Shown here one piece after another: positions 1-41,609 of a stretch of DNA of 64,000 bases (its first letter is position 1; every line of letters starts with the position of its first letter). The notes under the pieces are model-generated. The model did no database searches. It saw only the letters and a program-made list of their open reading frames with translations, and was not told the DNA's origin. This DNA is from the human T2T-CHM13v2.0 reference genome, Homo sapiens. The stretch lies in the NCBI RefSeq assembly GCF_009914755.1, contig NC_060931.1; one strand, written 5' to 3'. The position numbers and the translations under genes were made by a program.

Positions 1-2744
1 GAAAATGCATATTATGTCCTTTGTAGATATAGCTTAGGGATATTCCTGATAGTGTCTTCTTTTATTTTCCAAGGACCACTAAAAAGTACTGGGAAAGTTG
101 AAGTAATATAAATTAATCAGAAATGAAAATGTGCTTTATACATTTAGTTAAACACACAGGCAAGGAACTGATACTTTTGTGCCAGAGTCATTTCAAGTCA
201 TAGGTTTTGTCCTTTATTATATATTCCATGTGCTAGGAATGAAGGAGCTTGTTGGAGAGCAGGAAATGTCCTTTCTTGGGGTCACAGAGGCCCAAGTTAA
301 AATCTAGGCTCTGCCGATTATTTGTTGTGTCAATGCCCCCAAGTTAACATGGCATTCCTATCCCCCAAGTTAAGTTTCTGAAATGCTGTTTTAACCTTAA
401 TCTGATATTGATCTGCTGACGAATTAAATTTCTCTATTCCTACATTTATTTTTCTTTATGTATAAATCCACACTTGCAATTTTATGTATTTAACATCCTC
501 AATTTCCTCATCAGGAAACTGGCATCAGCTATCAGATAAAATTGTTATAGGGATTACATGAGATGATGAAGGTGAACCTATAACACTTGGTACAATTTAG
601 GTACTAAGCATGGCAATGTTTTCTCTAGGGGAAAAATTTCAACTGGTTACTTCCCAGTGAGAACTGGCAGAAGTATGTAACTTCATAGAAAACACACACC
701 TCAGTTGTACTTCAGTTTCATCTATGGGTAACCATGCTGCACAAGAGAAGTATGGCCAAAGGCCAGTTAGTCTGTAAACATCACAGTTGAGATAAGGACT
801 GGTTACTTACCATCTTTGCATCCATATAAATAAAAGCCTCACAAGCATGTTTTAGGGGATCACTTATTTAATTCAGATTTCTCCTATTTGGATTTCTCCA
901 TTTTGTCACCAGAAATAGCCTATGGGTATCGTCCTCTAGGTGGTACAGAACAAAAAGAAACAAAAACACTCAGCTGAAACCTTCCTCCCAGCTAAGAAGT
1001 CATCAAGTGAAAAGAAATGTTCAAAAGAAGCCCTCAGGAAAGAGACTATGCAAATATGAATAGGAAAAAACTAGACTTCTGTCTATGGTATATGTTTCCA
1101 AGTTATCCTCCAGCTGATTACTTGGGCTAGTACAAACCATAAATTTACCCAAAGAAAATGATGACAGCATGATGCAAAATTACAGGTCCACTGACTATAC
1201 CCTACTTTTCTGGGTGATGGGCTGATCCTGTGTAATAAACACTCATATTACATTCCACAGTCGAGTACTATAGGTAGAGATTATTCACCATTGGTTTGAG
1301 TTTAGGCTTGAAGGAATAAATATGTAATCATATGGCAGGGAAAGGAACATGTAACTTTTCCTCTCTTATCACAGAAACTGCCATTTTGCTTTGGAGTTTA
1401 CAGATTACACAGAAGTCACCTAATCTTTACTGAAAACATTTACCTCTGGAAAAGGTCGACATTTTGATACAGGACAAACACTGTCACTAACCTTGGCACT
1501 AGACTTTAAATATTTTCCACCAAATATCAATAATATCAGTAATAAGTTTCATTTCTCATGAGGCCAGCTATTGACCATCTTAGGTATGCTTGACCCAAAT
1601 GAACTTGATGTAAGCAGAATCTCAGATTTGTTGCCTCAACCTTAGATTCTACATTTATTTACTTAGAAGTGTTTTCTACTTAATCCTAACATCAAATCTC
1701 ACCTTCAAGTAACAGTTGATAAATTACATATGTGGCCTATTATATGTTATTTTAGTAATGAAACTGTTCTGTTCTCCATGTAGAAATCATCAATTTTCTG
1801 ACAAGTTTTCTTAAAATGTAAGTCAAAGAAAAGGGTATAATTCATTCCCAGAGCAGAAAATAATACTAGATTCTAGATGAACTTAAGTATCTTCCAATTA
1901 AACATTCTAAGCCTAGGAATAAGCATCAAATTTCTCCGTCTTTTTTACTTCCATGGTACCACATCTCTACATGACTCTGATGAATTTTGCATCTTCATGT
2001 GACCATGCATATGCAAAGAGTGATTGAGTGGACAGATAATTTTCTCAACTCTTCCAAACACAGGATGCCTTGATCTATAGTTCCAAAGCCATGGCTCATT
2101 AATTAGCACAGTTCTGCATAGCACATTGCTGCCAAACCAGTTAGCAGCCAGATAAAGAGATGCAAAGCTCAACTTCTGTGGCATTTTGTGTTTCCCTCCC
2201 ATTCCTCAAAAAAGATAAGGACTAGAAGTAATGAATAAATAGGTTAAAAAGACAAATAAAAGCTAATTTCACTTTACAAGGTTTATGTTTATGATCTTTT
2301 CTTCTCCCAGTGGTTTTCTTAGCTTGGCTAGGATATGCCATGTTACATTAGTAACTATCAGTTAAAAAAAATAAATTGACTCCTAATCTGTCTGTCATAA
2401 ATAAGACTCCCTGCTCATGCATGCTCTGAGAATGAGAACTAAATTTACTGTCGTCTTGCCCTTTCAGCAGATTACTCATGGAGGCATAAGTAGGTATACA
2501 CAGAATACAAGGAAATGTCCTATTCAGAGTAAAAGTCTGAACTTTATTGCGTATATCAGGAAGCAATTGTATATGTACCTGATGCCTGTGGAATCCTAAC
2601 TTTTGTTTAGGATTAAGGAAAGAAGTGGACCTCAATCTTTATTAAAGAAGCCAGATGATCATGACAGTTGGATTGTAGAGCCCAGTGTGTCTCAGTCTTC
2701 TGGCAAACTTCTGTAAATAAACAGGCACACAGAGCTAGATGTTC

Positions 2745-3078
2745 TCTTGTCACTTAAACTGCAATTCCTATCAGTGGGTGCTGAAGTCTTAAAATGACTT
2801 ATATTTTATTAAATAGAATACTGGTAATACAGTCTTTTTTCAATTGGTGATAATAAGCAATAGGTGATAATAAGCAATAGGTCAATCAAAGACAGTTCTT
2901 TAAAAATAACAGCAAATATATTAGAATAGAAAGGTAAAGAAAGGAAAAAACATCAGAGTGCGTCATATACAATAATGCTTTTATTTGTTGAAAATTTAAG
3001 TTAAATATGTGTCTGTACATTGGGTCACAATTTTAAAACTATTTGTTAATGAAGGTCACAGTCAAAAAATGTTTGCAG
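2745..3078. mobile_element. Degenerate hAT-Charlie-type element
   Basis: catcagagtgcgtc...ttgggtcaca...ggtcacagtcaaaaaatgtttg resembles Charlie-family ends; family uncertain. Confidence 0.4.
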
Positions 3079-3164
3079 GAAAACGATGTTTTCAAGGCAC
3101 TTGTAGTAAGTGATGTAATAATCTTGCAGCATTTAAACCTCTAAATGTGTTAATAAAATAATAG

Positions 3165-3440
3165 TATAATAAATTAATTATAAAAGTGTTTAAAAGTATG
3201 TGCTATGTGCTAGGCAATGTTCATAGTGAATTATATGTATTTTATCAATCAGTCCTCACATTAACCCTATGACATGTGTATTTTTAAATTTTACGCTCTG
3301 TGTTTTAAATTTTAAAGTGTGTGCTCTGTGCCAGGCAACAGTCATTATGAATCATATGTATTTTGTCAATTAATCTTCACCTTAACCCTATGACACACGT
3401 ATTTTTACTTTCCATTTTGTATAGATTGAGCTACTGAGAC
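3165..3440 (-). mobile_element. MIR with internal tandem duplication
   Basis: ctatgtgctaggcaatg...cctcacattaaccctatga...ccattttgtatagattgagctactgag. Confidence 0.6.
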
Positions 3441-6400
3441 ATTTCTCAGGAGCTCTTGTAATAATATTTTGATTGAGTTAGTGTAAAATAATGCATGATT
3501 TCATAAGTGAATAAATGATTCTGACTCTTCATCTATTAGAACACAGCTAGTAGTGTTAGAATTAGCCACCTTTCTCACCCTTGTTTTCTTAAGGAAACAC
3601 AGAAAGCATCTTCTTAATTAAAAAGTACCCTAAGAAAAAAAGCAGTTTTCCAAAATTATAGTCAAACTATGGGAATATTTTCAGTTAATAGAAGCATTTG
3701 ACTAAATTTTCCAGAAAACACAGCATACACAAAATACTCTTTCTCCTTATTCTCTCTATTGATGTTTCTCTTCCCATTTAGCTCTTTTCTACCAAATTTA
3801 AGGAATTCCAAGATTGCAAACCACAATAGATTGTTCAGTGTGGCCATTGGAAAAGGCATGTCAAGGTTAGCTGAGTAAATCCAGGAATAATCAAATAAAA
3901 AAGAAGGCACAGGAGAACAAACATTTATTTTCTCTCACACTGGGCTGTACATATTTGGCGAAGTGGCTTCCATGGTTCTCTCCTTCTTTATAGCGAAGGG
4001 TTATTTGTGTTGAATAACAACTCTTCCAGGTCAGTAAAAGTTGGATCAGGAATTGAACATACTCATTGTTCAAGAAACAAACAAACAGAAAGAATAACTA
4101 GGTGTGAAAGAAGTGGATAATTATACTGAAGTTTACCAATTAAATTCCATGTAGAAAAATCATATTGTTTTCCTCTGAAAGCTGAGAAACACATTATTAC
4201 ATTACAATGAAGTTTCATTTGTGAGGGAATGAAGATTCAAAGATCTCCTTGGAAATGGAGATTCCAAGTTTATACATGGAAGACTATTCTACAAGGATAC
4301 TCCAAAACTTAGTATTTGTAAATTAAATAGTACAATAGCAATTCTAAAATATGCAGGAAAAAAATGAAGAATGCCTAAAAATAATTTTAATGCCTCTCTT
4401 TCTAAATGGTTTTACTCAACTTAATTAACTGCTAACAAGTGTTTAAACTAGTTAGAAATAGATATATATGAAACATAACTCATATACACACAACCTGCTG
4501 TTAAGATTTTTTCTTTCCTTCTTTCTGTCTCTCAAAGCAATAGAATTTTGATTTGAGAATTATATATTTTGTATAGATTCTTGTTTAAAATGGAATTCTA
4601 TTTTTGCTTAAAAAATGTCTAACTTTTGCTGCTTACCTAAGCTACAGCGTTATTTGAATTAGAGATATTTGGATTTAATATTTCTGCAGAAGCCCAGACC
4701 CCCATCCTTATTTCACTGGAAATAAAAAACCACAAGGGTCTATTTTCCCTCCTTAATCCTCATCCCTGAACTTTCCAGAGGGATGAAAAACAGTAAATGA
4801 TGGACGCTTTATTACATGAAAGCCAGTTTGTAAATATCAAAAGGCAAATCAAATTTCTCTTTGTTCTGCAACCATAGAAAGACAGCAACATTTTCATTAA
4901 GGTACGAAATAAAAATCTGGGAGAAACCCATATACCTTAGAGTGATCTAAATTGAAATACTAAGATTCTAGAAAGAGGAGAACCCATCAGGACTTGATAA
5001 CGATGTCAGTGAGAGAGCAGAGAGGAACATTCCTGACAGACCTCTCAATTAGAACACTAAGTTAACATCAATACTACTTACCCTTCTTTCTAGCCATACC
5101 TCCTGCCTTTTCCATTTTTTCCCTAAAATTCTTGCTGTCTTACAATATGTCACATGCTTCCACACACAAGGATTTGCACATGGCATTCCTTCTGCCTGGA
5201 ATATTCTTCCTCCAACTCTCTCCACCCATCTTGAATGCCCCTGTGACTGTTCTAGTCCCCAGGTGCCATGTCTAATTCATATCTGGTGAGCACATAGCAG
5301 GTGATGATAATGAAGTAGAGATTAATAGGTAAACAGGAAATTACAATGTAGGGATTCAAGGACAATGATGGGAACACACAGAATGTCATGGGCATCCTGC
5401 CCAACCCTGCTCTGTGGTCCTGGCAGACATCCACATTCCTTTAAGCCACAGATTCCTGCTTCCCTACTTTATTGTTCCTACTTTATTGTTCTTGGTTCTA
5501 GGCTTTGGTAACTTGGAACTCAGCTCTGACCCTGGAAAACTTTTCTCACTAAATTCTTCAGTGAAATAATCAGACAATCCAATAGACTATACAAGTAGGG
5601 GTTTTTTTAAATCTTTATATGCCTCATGTTATTCAATTCTTCTTATTGCCATTCATCTATATCACCACTGCTTGCCTATGGCATTCTCTATACTGGTTCC
5701 TGTTCCTCTATTTCTTCCTTACTCCAATGCCTTATGTATATGGCTGTCCTATTTGTCTTTCTGAAGAAAAAATCTTATTACATTGCTTTTATACTACTAC
5801 TACTAAGAAAAACAGAAAAAGCGTATGTAATACAAACGTAAGACAATTACAAAAACACAGAACCCAGAAAACAAAAGCACAAAAATACCCTGAGTGGTAA
5901 CGAATACCCTTTATGAAATAGAACCACCTTTCTCACCTTACATTCTATTATTCCTATCATAAACTCCTCAAATCTCTTCCTTCTGAAAACAGCTCACTTC
6001 CCCAAGAGTTCCATTTGCTAATTCTTTTTCGTAGTAATGTGATAAGAGAGAAAGCTAACATTTATTAACACTGATCGTTTGCAAATATAGTGCTAATTGA
6101 CTTTATGTACTGAGATCCACACTTGACTGATTCAAAGGTCTGATTGCAGGAACGCTATGAAAGCAATAAAGGTGATAGTCTCAGGCAGAGGTGGGTGTGT
6201 GAAAGACGGCCTCCTCGCAGAGGCTAGACTCTAGCCCGTCCTTTGAATAACCACATGCACTGGGATTCTCCCTTAAGTGATCTGTGCTTTTCCTTTTCTT
6301 GAGGAACTTCCTCTGCTCCTGTTACAGCACATTTTGTTTCTCTATCCTTCTATTTCTACATGGTGGGACTTCCATTATAAGTGCATTCCTACCTCTCCTC

Positions 6401-37350: not shown

Positions 37351-37887
37351 GAGATAAAACCATTCCCCGATTATCAAAGTTTGTTCTTGAAAACTCTTCT
37401 TAGGGAAAAGTATTAAAGCAGTCTAAAAAGTATTTGTCACAAAAATTGTTAGTATTTAAATAATGGAATATTTTAAAGATACATGTATATATTCTCAATA
37501 TTTCGGTAATTTAAACCTTATTCACCCTTCCCCTAAAAAACCCTCAGAACAAAGTCAAGAGACATCATGAAAAGTCACATAAATGGTGTACAAGATTATT
37601 AAAGCTATAAACTTCCAAACTATGTACAAACTATCATCAGAGTCAACCTCATAATTCACAGGACTTCTTTTTCAGAAACCAAGACGTGCTATTAAAGGTA
37701 CTAAAATATAAATCTTTTACTTTTAAAAATATTTTCTTATAAAATGAAATAGGGCAATAGTGATATACGAATAACAATACAAACTTATAAATTATTTTAA
37801 AAAGTCTCTTTGGAGTCGCACGTTGTTATAGTAAAATAAATCATAATACTTTGTTAATGTGATATATTTATTGATCATAAGATTTTT

Positions 37888-38317
37888 TGCAGTTTATAGC
37901 TGCAGCGAACACCGGGAATGAAGTATACAGACAATTCCAGCTGAGCGGGGAGGGGAGCAGCTCCTCTGAGAGAGTGTCACCCCAAGATCCGTCCACCAAA
38001 TATTATTGAGAGAGCTTGTTTAAACTACAATTCAAACAAACAAGAGACATCCACCAGGTGGCGATTTGTGGTCCGGTCATGAGGCACATATGGCCCATAT
38101 GGCCTTGCTTATTAATCTAAAAGCACTTAGATCACATTCTCCTGAGGCTGTTTTCAGTGCTCCTTATCACACATTCTGCTCCTTGCCCTGTTTTCAGGGT
38201 CAAGGAGTTTCAGTCTTATGTACAAACAACATGCACACAGTGCCTCAGTATTTTTCCATGCCCCAACCTCAAATGCCTTGTACATAAGCTTGAATATATT
38301 GCTGTGCACCCCCCACA
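37888..38317 (-). mobile_element. 3' LTR of provirus (MER95-like by recollection)
   Basis: Copy of 40914-41335 with about 40 substitutions and a 9-bp duplication (catatggcc x2, 38087-38104). Directly preceded on the minus strand by the PPT. Confidence 0.9.
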
Positions 38318-38332
38318 TATCTCCCCCTTAAT
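38318..38332 (-). promoter_or_regulatory. Polypurine tract of provirus
   Basis: Minus strand ATTAAGGGGGAGATA directly abutting TGTGGG of the 3' LTR. Confidence 0.85.
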
Positions 38333-40213
38333 TCTTAGAGCATGTTGGTTATCTAATGCAAGGTAAGCTTCTATCATTCTTCCCTAGTCATAAATGTGTT
38401 GGGTGGCAGCACAGAGCTATTTGTAGATGTCTAGCAAACAGATATAAAAAAGAATAAGTATAGCGGCCATCACCCAAATGTGTATGTTTGACTCAGACAA
38501 CCAAGTATTTGGGTTTAACAATTAAAAGTCTTCTTGTAATTGCTGAAGGGTATTTGTTTATAATTACTGTGACCATTCTTCATGTTGTTTCTTTAACTTG
38601 CACTCAAGAGTGGAAACTTGAGAAGATAGGTGGTCGTGATAAGTCCCTTGTAGGTATGCTTTCACTCTCTTCCAAGCATACCGGGAGCTATCATATGGCA
38701 AAGGTGTAACACAGATAGAATTATATTGCCAATCACAATGTAAATTTTGATGAGTAATGAATGCCTGTGGTTGATCTCCTAGCCATTCAACGGCGCTTCA
38801 AGGGCCTCTAGGTGAGACAAAATACTCTTATCAATGTTTACTTGTTCTTGAAATTCATGGGTTACATTGCATAGCATGTGGTTCACCACTGAGGCTGTAT
38901 GAACAGATTCTGTCAAACAGATAGCTGTAGTAGTGGCAGTTGTTAATATAATAATAGCTGAGACTAAAAAGGCAATTAAAGTGGCCAGAATTTTTTTTTT
39001 TTTTTTTGAGTATGAGACAGTGCTTTTCTAAATAACTGCAGGGTGGAATCCCTTCCCAGTTCCTGGTAAAATTTACAGGGAGCCACAATTCTGTATGCCA
39101 TTTTAAGATTATGACATAGGTTATATTTAACTGTATAATATTTCGATGAGACAAGCATGTAGCATACCAACGACTGGAAGAGACTATAAAAGGATTATTA
39201 ATTACTAATTATTATTAATACTATAAAAGATTGATTCTGCTGTATGTTAGGAACACCTTGCCCAAACAGAAGTATATAGGGGTGCGTAGTACAAATCAGG
39301 ACGGTATCAGTAACATTATTGTGCAAGCAGAGGGTATAGTTGTCACTGCTATTAGTGTAATCATCATGTGAAAGAATTCGTTCGAAAAAAGGAAGTCCTA
39401 GTCTCCAAATTCAGGTATGAGCAGGGCTTAAAGCTTGTTCCCTTTTTTAATTGTAACATTGGTCCTGAAAGCTCATATTCTGACCAAGTGATGGCAATAT
39501 TGGAGGGACTGCCAAACCCAATAGTCTGATTTGCAGACACGAGATTACCATGGGGACCCCAATCAAGTAAGGTGCCATTATCAAACAGAGGCCCCTGACG
39601 TGGCGCAGGTTGTCTGCACGGGGACTACTGGATGGCCTCAAACTTATATGGCCAGTCTCTACTCAGACAGCATATAGGAAGATCCGGCACTTGTACAACT
39701 TCATTAGAGACCTCAGTAAGACTAGTCTAACGGCAGAAATAAAGGACAAATTTGCAAGCTTAGCATCCCTTTTGGGCTGATAGTAAAGATACTCCTGAGG
39801 AATGACAGTAATACACTTATTGTGAGTAATTGTGGAAAAACAAGTCAGGGGATTACTAGACAATAGAGTCAAAGAGTCACTGAGTTTAATCTATCCTAAA
39901 TTTCAGTTAAGGGGTAAGACAAGGGCATCCATCTACCTCCTGTCCAAGAAGTATCATTAGATGACAAAGGCGGGTCTGCATCCCACCACATAATCACATT
40001 AAAAACAGGGGGATTCAGAACATGACTCCAATAAACATGTTCTTGAGCTGAGTCCACCTGGCAAAGAACAAGAAATACCAGCCACCCCAACACCCATGTC
40101 TTTCTTACTTTCTCAGAAGCTTTCCCAATGACCGCCAGATACATAAGAAACTGGTTCTGTGCAGCTGCAGGGGCTCCCCTGGCCGTAAGCCGGATAGTTG
40201 TCTGTTGGTCCAA
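38330..40213 (-). pseudogene. Degenerate, near full-length betaretrovirus-type env (signal peptide-SU-TM)
   Basis: YWSHVLNPPVFNVIMWWDADPPLSSNDTSW (HERV-K [30 protein letters not shown]); GTLLDWGPHG (GTIIDWAPRG); LWLPVNFTRNWEG (VWIPVSMDRPWEA); hydrophobic fusion peptide; CDWQYNSIC CX7C loop at 38711-38737 (CDWNTSDFC); LNPNTW plus membrane span. Multiple stops and frameshifts. Confidence 0.9.
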
Positions 40214-40770
40214 CAGATGCAGGTCTTCTTAAGGGTGGAGGAAAAGAGGGCAATGGCTTTTCTATTAGGGGAGGAAAAGAGGGCAATGGCTTTTCTATTA
40301 GGGGAGGAAAAGGCTGCACTCTGTCCTCATCAACACTAGAAAAAGTGTCTTCTTTATGCCCTACTGAATGGAATGAAGTGGGGGGAGGAGCCCCTCCCTG
40401 TTGTTCTGGTTCCTGCATTCTCTTCCCCTTTAAATTTTCTGAATTACCTTCAGGTGAAGAAAATGGGCGCTCTGACTCACCATGATCTGGCATATAAAGA
40501 GAGTACAACGCAGAGTGTACCAGAGTCCAGGTGGTCAAAATGGTAACATTAGTAAAATGACCCTGCTCAAATCTTCTTTGCAGGCAGTGACCCACCTGAT
40601 CCCATAACTCCTAGTCTAATCTTGATCAGAGAAACAAGGGCATTCCTGTCAAATTAAAAATGTAAGCTTATGCAAAGTTTTAGACTTTACGGTACACTGG
40701 ATAGCCTTAAGTAATTGTTGCACCGTTTAAAAAAAAAAACTTTCTGCTCTTTGGTCAATTTCTGACCCAG
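40214..40770 (-). pseudogene. Degenerate gag 5' part (beta-type matrix p10 plus proline-rich spacer), truncated before capsid
   Basis: (M>L)GQKLTKEQKVFF/KTVQQLLKAIQCTVKSKTLHKLTFLI*QECPCF...LWDQVGHCLQRRFEQGHFTNVTILTTWTLVHSAL parallels the MPMV/HERV-K matrix (MGQ...CPWF...W..VG..L...W..I). Start codon is CTG; frameshifts and a stop present. Confidence 0.85.
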
Positions 40771-40866
40771 GATAACCCAACCCCTGGTATTATATGAATC
40801 GGTCCCATCCTCCTGAAATGGGTCGGGACTGTCCCTTACTGACACTCCCCAAAGACTGATGAGTTT

Positions 40867-40872
40867 ACTTAC
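40867..40872 (-). promoter_or_regulatory. Probable proviral major splice donor
   Basis: GA|GTAAGT on the minus strand in the leader between PBS and gag, the usual position. Confidence 0.55.
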
Positions 40873-40892
40873 TCCACACATAATTTTAAGGC

Positions 40893-40911
40893 AATCATGT
40901 CAGGGTAACCA
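40893..40911 (-). promoter_or_regulatory. Primer-binding site, tRNA-Trp type
   Basis: Minus strand TGGTTACCCTGACATGATT, 2 nt after the LTR end. Matches the complement of the tRNA-Trp(CCA) 3' end, TGGTGACCCCGACGTGATT, at 16/19. Two of the three mismatches are CpG-type transitions. Confidence 0.8.
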
Positions 40912-40913
40912 CT

Positions 40914-41335
40914 TGCAGCTTATAGCTGCAGCGAACGCTGAGAATGAAGTACTCAAACAATTTCAGCTGAGCAGGGTGGGGAGCAGCTCCTCTGAGAGAG
41001 TGTTGCCCCAAGATCTGTCCATCAAATATTTATTGAGAGAGCTTGTTTAAACTACAATTCAGACAAACAAGAGACATCCACCAGCTGGCGATTTCTGGTC
41101 AGATCATGAGGCACCTATGACCTTGTTTACTACATATAAAAGCACTCAGACCACATTCTCAGGAGGCTGTTTTCAAGGCTCCTTATCACACATTCCGTTC
41201 CTTGCCCTGTTTTCAGGGTCGAGGAGTTTCAGTCTCATGCACAAACAACATGCACACAGTGCCTCAGTATTTTTCCATGCCTCGACATCAAATGCCTTGT
41301 ACATAAGCTTGAATATGTTCCTGTGCACCCCCACA
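40914..41335 (-). mobile_element. 5' LTR of provirus (MER95-like by recollection)
   Basis: Minus strand begins TGTGGGGGTGCACAGG and ends GCTATAAGCTGCA. Contains AATAAA (plus-strand TTTATT near 41030). About 90% identical to 37888-38317 by eye. Confidence 0.9.
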
Positions 41336-41609
41336 TTTTTCTTCTCATTTTTCTACAATTTATACTTTTCTACTTCTTCATTCCAATTAAACTGAAAGCA
41401 ATATCAGTCCTTTTTGGGCAATGCAAGATCATTTTTAGTACATAATTTTTGATAATTGTTCATTTAGGGAAGAATCCACTGATGCAACTGTTACTAGAGA
41501 TAAGATTATTTTATAGAGTGTGATATTAAGATCAATTTTGATTATTTTATAACATAAATTTTAGTACCTCTAGGGCTAATGATTCAACGTTTAGAAGTTT
41601 CTAAAGACC

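What the first reader, a model, noticed from the sequence alone, without database searches (positions are those of the whole stretch)
37888..41335. Betaretrovirus-like provirus with MER95-like LTRs: possibly an uncatalogued class II ERV lineage
Seen: a two-LTR provirus with PBS, PPT, beta-type matrix and beta-type env (CX7C loop CDWQYNSIC; no CKS-17-like immunosuppressive domain that I can find). Established: human class II ERVs are grouped as HML1-10 with LTR3/5/13/14/22, MER9 and MER11 LTRs. Inference: these LTRs match none of those as I remember them. They resemble MER95, which I recall as a poorly classified LTR lacking a well-known internal consensus. If so, this locus ties MER95 to a betaretrovirus-like internal sequence and would reclassify it.
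Basis: partly seen in the sequence, partly recalled or inferred. Interest (0 to 1): 0.85.

Follow-up and report, generated by a model that had tools for sequence, protein, structure and literature searches.

The report
Deleted provirus of an overlooked HERV family
This is a dead, internally deleted copy of an ancient retrovirus in an intron of THSD7A, and it belongs to a small family of HERV-K-like elements that fits none of the ten named HERV-K groups I could compare it with.

Summary
Window 37888-41335 is a two-LTR provirus on the minus strand. It has 5-bp target repeats, a primer binding site (PBS), a polypurine tract, a fragment of betaretrovirus-type matrix, and a beta-type env with a CX7C loop. 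About 4.5 kb is missing: capsid, nucleocapsid, protease, polymerase and the env start. Every remaining frame is broken.

It is not a one-off. The human genome holds about 15 proviral loci and about 19 solo or partial LTRs of the same family. Three copies keep pro and pol. Relatives carry Gag_p10, dUTPase, RT, RNase H, integrase and a GP41-type TM.

The family is sharply separate from other human ERVs:
- Outside the family, pol DNA matches only 135-435 nt of the RT core, at 66-77%.
- TM identity is 74-82% inside the family, 37-46% to HML5 (the nearest human group) and 32-33% to one HML6 locus.
- The LTRs show no similarity to HML5 or HML6 loci.
- The PBS is tRNA-Trp type, not Lys, Met or Ile.
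- Target repeats are mostly 5 bp.

So "betaretrovirus-like, not HML1-10" is supported. The MER95 link and "uncatalogued" could not be tested, because no Dfam or RepeatMasker library was available.

The parts
37883..37887 (-). Target-site duplication, 3' side (AAAAA in sense orientation)
   Evidence: Read directly. The same pentamer lies at 41336-41340.
37888..38317 (-). 3' LTR (430 bp; TG...CA ends; AATAAA signal; a 9-bp tandem repeat at 38083-38104 accounts for a 9-base indel against the 5' LTR)
   Evidence: The LTR pair differs at 9.5% of sites.
38320..38329 (-). Polypurine tract AAGGGGGAGA
   Evidence: The same position upstream of the LTR is seen at the chr2:232.87 locus.
38219..39000 (-). 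env TM remnant: fusion peptide, heptad region, CX7C loop (CDWQYNSIC), membrane span and tail. The tail frame runs into U3 of the 3' LTR. Several stops and frameshifts.
   Evidence: Pfam GP41 E 8.4e-11. tblastn map against relatives. Alignment to solved HERV-K (HML-2) TM structures through a relative.
38991..39007 (-). Run of 17 A (sense) at the SU/TM cleavage-site region, where the frame shifts
   Evidence: The chr8 relative reads QKKRF at this place.
39001..40210 (-). env SU remnant. It lacks the start of env and is spread over three frames with stops.
   Evidence: tblastn against SU frames of the chr19 and chr8 relatives, 75-81% identity over the N-terminal SU pieces. Shares VYWSHVLNPP and LICTTHPY motifs with HML5 consensus Env printed in the supplement of PMC4724089.
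40210..40211 (-). Internal deletion junction (gag after the matrix/phosphoprotein region joined to env). TGG microhomology. About 4.5 kb missing relative to full-length relatives.
   Evidence: Alignments of both sides to the chr19, chrX and chr11 copies. No capsid match in the element.
40211..40827 (-). gag matrix plus downstream proline-rich region, in three frames with stops. Contains an exact 33-bp tandem duplication at 40237-40312.
   Evidence: 67% identity to the chr19 matrix, which hits Gag_p10.
40894..40911 (-). Primer binding site, decayed tRNA-Trp type
   Evidence: exact form in the chr11 and chrX copies; its 15 nt after TGG are complementary to the 3' ends of three tRNA-Trp(CCA) genes.
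40914..41335 (-). 5' LTR (422 bp)
41336..41340 (-). Target-site duplication, 5' side (AAAAA in sense orientation)

Best explanation
The element is a fossil provirus of a small, discrete family of betaretrovirus-like (class II) endogenous retroviruses.

Shown:
- The family primed reverse transcription with tRNA-Trp.
- It mostly made 5-bp target duplications.
- It carried the betaretroviral gene set: Gag_p10 matrix, two zinc knuckles, dUTPase in pro, RT, RNase H, integrase and a non-covalent beta-type Env.
- This copy sits in sense orientation in a THSD7A intron.
- It lacks capsid through the env start. The deletion junction shows a 3-nt microhomology.
- It later gained a 33-bp duplication, and all its frames are broken.

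Inferred:
- It integrated roughly 23-40 million years ago, from LTR divergence.
- It is now inert DNA. At most its LTRs keep promoter and poly(A) motifs.
- The deletion arose either by template switching before integration or by deletion afterwards.
- Among human ERVs the family is nearest to HML5 (HERVK22), but it stands at the rank of a separate group.
For: Anatomy of this copy.

Family membership. The internal DNA matches copies on chr1 (three loci), 2, 3, 8 (two loci), 11, 12, 19 and X (two loci) at 82-85% for env and 77-84% for leader and gag. The same LTR family flanks them.

Gene content of relatives: Gag_p10, Gag_p24 with Gag_p24_C, zf-CCHC and zf-CCHC_5, dUTPase, RVP, RVT_1, RNase_H, Integrase_Zn, rve and GP41.

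Separateness:
- TM search of the genome: 323 candidates, 150 scored. Ten family loci score 66-100%. All other listed matches are 49% or below, and 43% or below for matches over 60 residues.
- The four best outsiders fetched carry the HML5 motif LLLQQGID[QK]K.
- Search with 2.5 kb of pro-pol DNA: 85 candidates, 40 scored. Family loci match at 83-88%. All others match only 135-435 nt, at 66-77%.
- blastn of this element against four HML5 loci and one HML6 locus found nothing. For the chr19 copy, HML5 loci matched only in RT at about 65%, plus Alu.
- Amino-acid identity to HML5: RT core 55-62%, RNase H-integrase 38-42%, SU 27-33%, TM 37-46%.
- TM tree: family clade 100/99, HML5 clade 99/96.

PBS.

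Target repeats. Of 19 elements with both ends, 9 have an exact 5-bp repeat that does not extend to 6, 3 have an exact 6-bp repeat, and 7 are unclear.

Age. LTR K2P distance is 0.103 here, and 0.054-0.142 in seven of the eight other proviruses measured.
Against: - No repeat library could be consulted, so the family may already have a Dfam or Repbase name, and even an internal consensus.
- My labels 'HML5' and 'HML6' for comparison loci rest on motifs printed in the supplement of PMC4724089 and on one coordinate match by inferred offset to a RepeatMasker HERVK22-int. They do not come from a repeat annotation of those loci.
- HML1-4 and 7-10 were excluded by printed consensus Env motifs, LTR starts or lengths, and by the genome-wide identity gap. 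Labelled sequences of those groups were not placed in a tree.
- A short RT piece does not separate the groups: 66% to HML-2 against 68-76% within the family.
- Genome searches score only the best candidates, so copy counts are lower bounds.
- The one class II HML5 example in PMC1779541 has a 6-bp repeat, but two other class II examples there have 5 bp. Repeat length alone therefore proves little.
Confidence: 0.85

Rival explanations
1. It is a divergent member of HML5 (HERVK22 with LTR22-type LTRs), not a separate group.
For: HML5 is the nearest human group. It supplies the best non-family TM hits. The env shares motifs with it (LICTTHPY; IDK.IL.HLEALEA against IDQKILA.LQALEA) and so does the matrix (ELWEQVG). 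No G-patch hit was found in the fragments scanned, and the supplement of PMC4724089 lists HML5 as lacking one.
Against: No nucleotide similarity was found outside about 400 nt of RT, at 65%. TM identity is 37-46% and SU 27-33%. The two form separate, well-supported TM clades. The PBS is Trp, against Met (PMC1779541) or I, K, p (PMC4724089 supplement). The LTR start differs from the HML5 consensus start, and no LTR similarity to HML5 loci was detected.
Confidence: 0.07
2. The family is already catalogued. Its LTR is a named RepeatMasker/Dfam LTR (MER95, or another). Only the link to a class II internal sequence is missing from the HERV literature, or it too is already recorded.
For: Human repeat libraries are very complete, and an LTR with about 50 copies is unlikely to be absent (my knowledge, not a call). 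[quoted passage not shown]
Against: That review files MER95 under ERV1. This family is class II by every gene and mostly makes 5-bp target repeats. Ten paper searches found no description of a Trp-primed HML-like group. Those most directed at this point were.
Confidence: 0.6
3. It is a mosaic or recombinant of different HML groups, for example an HML5-like env on another backbone.
For: PMC4724089 reports that mosaic HML forms are common.
Against: The same relatives match this element from LTR through gag and from env through LTR at similar identity. The full-length relatives are equally distant from other groups in pro and pol. So the whole genome, not one segment, defines the family.
Confidence: 0.03

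Closest known systems
HERV-K(HML-5) / HERVK22 with LTR22A-C
   Same: Nearest human ERV group by Env and Gag motifs and by TM search. Both have a beta-type TM with an aberrant, non-'LANQINDL' region before the cysteine loop. Both have dUTPase. No G-patch was detected here, and HML5 is listed as lacking one. Both are old.
   Different: Identity is only 37-46% in TM, 27-33% in SU and 38-42% in RNase H-integrase. DNA similarity is detectable only in about 400 nt of RT, at 65%. The LTRs are unrelated. The PBS is Trp instead of Met or Ile. Target repeats are mostly 5 bp, against 6 bp in the single printed HML5 example. There are about 15 proviruses, against about 100.
Horse (Equus caballus) endogenous retroviral Env, UniRef 'Retroviral envelope protein GP41-like domain-containing protein' (P0002)
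   Same: 47% identity over 89% of a 287-residue Env fragment of the chr8 relative. The ALEAAVEWLG stretch is identical. It falls in the same well-supported TM clade as the family and HML5.
   Different: It comes from a different host order. Branching order among the family, HML5, horse and turtle sequences is unresolved. Only Env was compared.
HERV-K(HML-2) Env TM, solved structures 9nnd, 9mla and 9mlk
   Same: The relative's TM aligns from the fusion peptide through the CX7C loop at E 5e-19. The same non-covalent, two-cysteine beta-type fusion subunit is therefore expected.
   Different: About 35% identity in the TM piece searched. HML-2 has a Lys PBS and 968-bp LTR5 LTRs (recalled).
Avian sarcoma/leukosis viruses, for tRNA-Trp priming
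   Same: The same 18-nt tRNA-Trp PBS. The ASLV sequence is recalled, not from a call. Complementarity to human tRNA-Trp genes was tested.
   Different: Alpharetroviruses have a different gene set and an avian gamma-type Env.
MER95 (Repbase/Dfam LTR)
   Same: Listed as an LTR without a known internal part.
   Different: It is filed as ERV1. No MER95 sequence was available, so neither identity nor difference is shown.

Membership tests
Betaretrovirus-like (class II) ERV | Gag_p10-type matrix | tested here: met
   The matrix of the chr19 relative hits PF02337 at E 1.4e-12. This copy's matrix remnant is 67% identical to it. This copy alone gave no Pfam hit.
Betaretrovirus-like (class II) ERV | dUTPase encoded in pro, and two zinc knuckles in nucleocapsid | tested here: met
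   PF00692 at E 4.1e-17; zf-CCHC and zf-CCHC_5 in the chr19 relative. All are deleted from this copy.
Betaretrovirus-like (class II) ERV | Beta-type TM: two-cysteine CXnC loop (n = 4-7), no CX6CC, no recognisable immunosuppressive domain (definition read in passages of PMC3758190) | tested here: met
   CDWQYNSIC in the frame 38564-38797. PF00517 hit. Alignment to HML-2 TM structures.
Betaretrovirus-like (class II) ERV | 6-bp target-site duplication (recalled as typical of MMTV and most HERV-K) | tested here: inconclusive
   Of 19 elements, 9 have an exact 5-bp repeat only, 3 an exact 6-bp repeat and 7 are unclear. PMC1779541 prints 5-bp repeats for two class II elements.
HML5 / HERVK22 | Within-group nucleotide identity in pol and LTR22-type LTRs | tested here: not met
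   65% over about 400 nt of RT only, with no LTR match to HML5 loci. The LTR start differs from the printed HML5 consensus start.
HML5 / HERVK22 | PBS for tRNA-Met or Ile | tested here: not met
   The PBS is tRNA-Trp type. HML5 is given as Met in PMC1779541 and as I, K, p in the PMC4724089 supplement.
HML5 / HERVK22 | Env motif LLLQQGIDQKIL... and TM clustering with HML5 copies | tested here: not met
   The family reads EFQEQVNIDK.ILSHLEALEA. The two form separate clades, 100/99 and 99/96.
HML1-4 and HML7-10 | Env region LANQINDL/IVNQINDL...VIWMGDR, and the group-specific LTR | tested here: not met
   The motif is absent. LTR starts of HML1, 3 and 10 differ. LTR lengths are 812 (HML4), 865 (HML7), 1,079 (HML8) and 583-588 (HML9), against 387-446 bp for the family's intact LTRs. 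No pol DNA match above 77% over 135-435 nt anywhere outside the family. Labelled sequences were not placed in a tree.
HML6 / HERVK3 | Env motif LQNKINTELQTEVAMLK, and LTR3 | tested here: not met
   One locus carrying a near-identical form of that motif (chr2:136.5 Mb) is 32-33% identical in TM and falls outside the clade. The LTR start differs, although LTR length is similar at 428-431 bp.
HML-11 (Subramanian et al. 2011) | Close cousin of HML-2; proviruses at 17p13.1 and 8p22 | tested here: not met
   Passages of PMC3228705. This family's loci and its nearest relatives are different.
MER95 | Sequence identity of the LTR to the MER95 consensus | not testable with these tools
   No Dfam or Repbase sequences were available. 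Only the ERV1 listing was seen.

The most novel reading that the evidence does not exclude
The family is an unrecognised further HML-rank group of human class II endogenous retroviruses. It is primed by tRNA-Trp, makes 5-bp target repeats, and belongs with HML5 and with horse and turtle ERV envelopes in one deep beta-type Env clade. Its LTR would be an orphan library entry, possibly MER95, now misfiled as ERV1. The ten-group HML scheme and that LTR's class would then both need correcting.
Probability: 0.3. Interest if true: 0.55.

Novelty: new member of a known kind. Interest (0 to 1): 0.45.

Why it matters
HERV-K-like elements are treated as ten groups (HML1-10, with an occasional HML-11) in expression, disease and evolution studies. 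If a further discrete group of about 34 loci is missing from that scheme, three things follow:
- Reads and peptides from these loci are unassigned or misassigned.
- The deep history of betaretroviruses in primates gains a lineage with a different primer tRNA and a link to ERVs of other orders.
- An orphan LTR family may get its internal sequence and correct class.

The locus itself has no sign of function. It is an inert fossil in a large THSD7A intron.

Tried and rejected
- HML-1 (HERVK14 with LTR14A/B) was my first guess, from memory. I dropped it after reading the HML1 consensus Env and LTR start in the supplement of PMC4724089.
- HML-9 and HML-7: the HML-9 paper gives a 588-bp LTR14C and loci that do not match. 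The HML-7 paper's text holds none of the family's cytobands.
- HML-11 is a different thing.
- Locus-name searches found nothing. I tried the HML1, HML3, HML4, HML5, HML6 and HERVK11D name forms at 7p21.3, HML1 names at the relatives' cytobands, and cytoband combinations.
- A search for a dedicated HML1 paper found none.
- The papers of Flockerzi 2005 and Lavie 2004 are not held.
- The per-locus table of PMC4724089 is an old .xls file and unreadable. It may well show how these proviruses were classified.
- The supplement of PMC12884080 holds only per-family counts.
- A 100-residue RT piece did not discriminate between groups.
- A search for longer Pol relatives returned no informative names, with 40% identity or less.
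- Earlier findings of this scan were not open.
- No structure prediction or complex job was run, because the questions were about sequence relationships.
Full report
**The thing itself**

Window 37888-41335 is a provirus read on the minus strand. Its LTRs are 40914-41335 (5') and 37888-38317 (3'), with TG...CA ends. They differ at 40 of 420 aligned sites, a K2P distance of 0.103. AAAAA (sense orientation) flanks both ends.

Two bases after the 5' LTR lies an 18-nt primer binding site (PBS). The tract AAGGGGGAGA lies two bases before the 3' LTR.

Between them are two coding remnants:
- About 620 nt of gag. This is matrix plus a proline-rich stretch, spread over three frames with stops. It includes an exact 33-bp tandem duplication.
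- About 2 kb of env, also spread over three frames. It lacks the env start, and a run of 17 A sits at the SU/TM cleavage region.

The TM frame hits Pfam GP41 at E 8.4e-11. The provirus lies in the same orientation as THSD7A, inside an intron and away from the listed exons (hub table).

**The deletion**

Relatives match this element over sense positions 1-1066 and 1123-3449. Between those two parts they carry a further 2.7-4.9 kb, or about 12 kb in the chr3 copy, which has a large insertion.

Alignment of both sides puts the junction at window 40210|40211. It joins gag just after ...ASVGP to env at ...KKLDQQ, and TGG is shared by both sides. No capsid match remains.

None of the ten related proviral loci fetched and compared has this junction. 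Whether it arose before or after integration cannot be told from one genome.

**It is a family**

A genome search with the internal DNA found relatives at chr19:24.10, chr12:70.43, chr8:79.08, chr1:160.04, chr1:159.86, chr1:86.34, chrX:70.13 and 70.21, chr3:188.38, chr8:29.59, chr11:60.71 and chr2:183.25 Mb (T2T coordinates). Env matches at 82-85% and leader plus gag at 77-84%.

Two LTR searches each had 46 first-look candidates, of which 40 were scored. Together they give about 15 proviral loci and about 19 solo or partial LTRs, at 72-94% identity. There are two LTR subtypes. These counts are lower bounds.

Only three copies keep pro and RT: chr19, chr12 and chr8:79. Five share one uniform deletion and two share another.

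Frames from relatives hit Gag_p10, Gag_p24 with Gag_p24_C, two zinc-knuckle models, dUTPase, RVP, RVT_1, RNase_H, Integrase_Zn, rve and GP41. No G-patch hit appeared in the pieces scanned. This is the betaretroviral gene plan.

**Primer and target repeats**

The chr11 and chrX copies keep the PBS intact. Its 15 nt after TGG occur at ten places in the genome: three are these copies and seven lie elsewhere.

I fetched five of those seven. ARAGORN finds a tRNA-Trp(CCA) gene at three of them (chr6, chr17, chr12), with its 3' end at the match. It finds no tRNA at the other two. The copy in the window differs from the intact PBS at 3 of 18 positions.

I examined 19 elements with both ends. Nine have an exact 5-bp repeat that does not extend to 6, three have an exact 6-bp repeat, and seven are unclear. 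The family therefore most likely made 5-bp repeats.

**Age**

LTR-LTR K2P distance is 0.054-0.142 in seven of the eight other proviruses measured, and 0.103 here. That gives about 23-40 million years for this copy, at 2.2e-9 to 1.3e-9 substitutions per site per year (rates recalled).

The chrX copy is the exception at 0.005. I take this for gene conversion.

**Where the family stands**

I first guessed HML-1. The supplement of Vargiu et al. 2016 (PMC4724089; I read passages of its supplementary files 1-3) prints consensus Env, Gag and LTR starts for the HML groups, and these showed the guess to be wrong.

The env here resembles only the HML5 type:
- LICTTHPY is shared.
- VYWSHVLNPP compares with LYWAHILDPP.
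- IDK.ILSHLEALEA compares with IDQKILA.LQALEA.

The matrix resembles HML5 and HML6.

The distance is nevertheless large:
- TM search. A 77-residue TM piece finds ten family loci at 66-100%. Everything else is at 49% or below, and at 43% or below for matches longer than 60 residues (323 candidates, 150 scored).
- Labels of the outsiders. The four best outsiders that I fetched carry the HML5 motif. A fifth, at chr2:136.5 Mb, carries the HML6 motif.
- An independent label. Another outsider at chr6:32.877 Mb coincides, by an offset I inferred, with a HERVK22-int annotated by RepeatMasker in PMC8193847 (passages).
- Protein identity to HML5. Over 122-157 aligned TM residues the window's copy is 74-82% identical to the other family copies and 38-45% to the four HML5 genomic copies. 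For the chr8 copy the HML5 figure is 37-46%. Identity is 32-33% to the HML6 locus and 43-49% to two horse-type Env proteins. RT core is 55-62%, RNase H-integrase 38-42%, dUTPase 45-46%, matrix 33-40% and SU 27-33%.
- DNA level. This element has no blastn match to the five outsider loci. The chr19 copy matches HML5 loci only in a 330-420 nt RT stretch at 65-66%, plus Alu insertions and a few short weak hits.
- Genome-wide pol search. A search with 2.5 kb of pro-RT-RNase H finds family copies at 83-88%. Nothing else exceeds 435 nt, at 66-69%, or 135-157 nt at 75-77% (85 candidates, 40 scored).
- Tree. A maximum-likelihood TM tree of 19 rows (one short HML5 protein row left out) gives the family 100/99 and HML5 99/96. 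Both sit with horse and turtle sequences in a 99/97 clade whose internal order is unresolved.

One result cuts the other way. A 100-residue RT piece does not separate the groups: 66% to HML-2, against 68-76% to the two family copies that keep it.

**LTRs**

The LTR starts TGTGGGGGGTGCACAG. This is unlike the printed consensus starts of HML1, 3, 5, 6 and 10.

Printed LTR lengths are:

| Group | LTR length (bp) |
|---|---|
| HML4 | 812 |
| HML7 | 865 |
| HML8 | 1,079 |
| HML9 | 583-588 |
| HML6 | 428-431 |
| HML5 | 477-497 |

These come from the table of PMC1779541 and passages of PMC9178832. The family's LTRs measure 387-446 bp where intact. The chr1:160.04 5' LTR is split by an insert.

**Literature**

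- Polavarapu et al. 2006 found ten class II families in the chimpanzee, all mapped to the ten HERV-K names (passages and table).
- HML-11 of Subramanian et al. 2011 is a cousin of HML-2 at 17p13.1 and 8p22 (passages).
- The Repbase review lists MER95 under ERV1, among LTRs with no characterised internal part (passage of its Table 4).
None turned up a description of a Trp-primed HML-like group or of these loci. The library lacks most subscription papers, and the per-locus table of Vargiu et al. could not be read.

**What remains open**

No Dfam, Repbase or RepeatMasker library was available. I therefore cannot say what the LTR is called, whether it is MER95, or whether an internal consensus exists.

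I judge it likely that the LTR has a name, and fairly unlikely that the family is recognised as its own HML-rank group.

**How it works**

The element does not work now. It is the relic of an integration by a betaretrovirus-like virus with these properties:
- It primed minus-strand synthesis from tRNA-Trp.
- It primed plus-strand synthesis from the polypurine tract.
- It entered cells with a non-covalently associated SU-TM envelope. The chr8 relative's TM aligns to the solved HERV-K (HML-2) TM structures 9nnd and 9mla at E 5e-19.

All its frames are broken, and the enzymes and the env start are gone. The LTRs keep an AATAAA signal and a TATA-like motif (read). Whether they act on THSD7A transcripts was not tested.

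Noticed in passing
L057 (T2T chrX:70.130-70.1366 Mb) and its twin at chrX:70.212-70.2185 Mb: Two copies of the family lie in opposite orientation about 80 kb apart and give identical search scores, which suggests an inverted segmental duplication. The LTRs of the fetched copy differ at only 2 of 392 sites, against 5-13% in the other proviruses. I take this for LTR gene conversion.
   Followed up: partly
T2T chr3:188.3748-188.3916 Mb: In this family copy, gag and env are about 12 kb apart. Between them lie HML-2-like pol and env matches with long open frames (969 and 489 residues). An HML-2 provirus seems to have inserted into it.
   Followed up: no
L033 (T2T chr2:232.8725 Mb): One LTR has env 3' sequence and the polypurine tract upstream, and a Trp-type PBS downstream. 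This fits a remnant of tandem or recombined proviruses sharing one LTR.
   Followed up: no
P0014 (UniRef, Pelusios castaneus): A turtle protein carries a beta-type TM 44% identical to the family's TM and falls in the same clade. The review PMC3758190 states that beta-type TMs had not been found outside mammals. It could be real or a contaminant.
   Followed up: no
T2T chr9:130881141-130881155 and chrX:135099453-135099467: These are exact matches to the 15-nt Trp PBS core. They are neither tRNA genes (ARAGORN found none) nor known copies of this family. They may be PBS sites of other elements.
   Followed up: partly
L054, near its 3' end (T2T chr8:79.0838 Mb): Another HML-type sequence (...NYTYWAYIPFPPLIRPVT, the env start of the LANQINDL-type groups) lies next to the chr8:79.08 copy of the family.
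   Followed up: no
L051:2089-2952 (chr19 copy, env N-terminus): There is a weak Pfam match to HERV-K_REC (E 3.9e-4, below the curated cut-off) over the env leader with the TWGQLKKL motif. This is the region that encodes Rec/Rem-type proteins in other betaretroviruses.
   Followed up: no
window 37888-41335 within THSD7A: The provirus lies in the same orientation as the host gene. This is the less common orientation for intronic proviruses (recalled).
   Followed up: no
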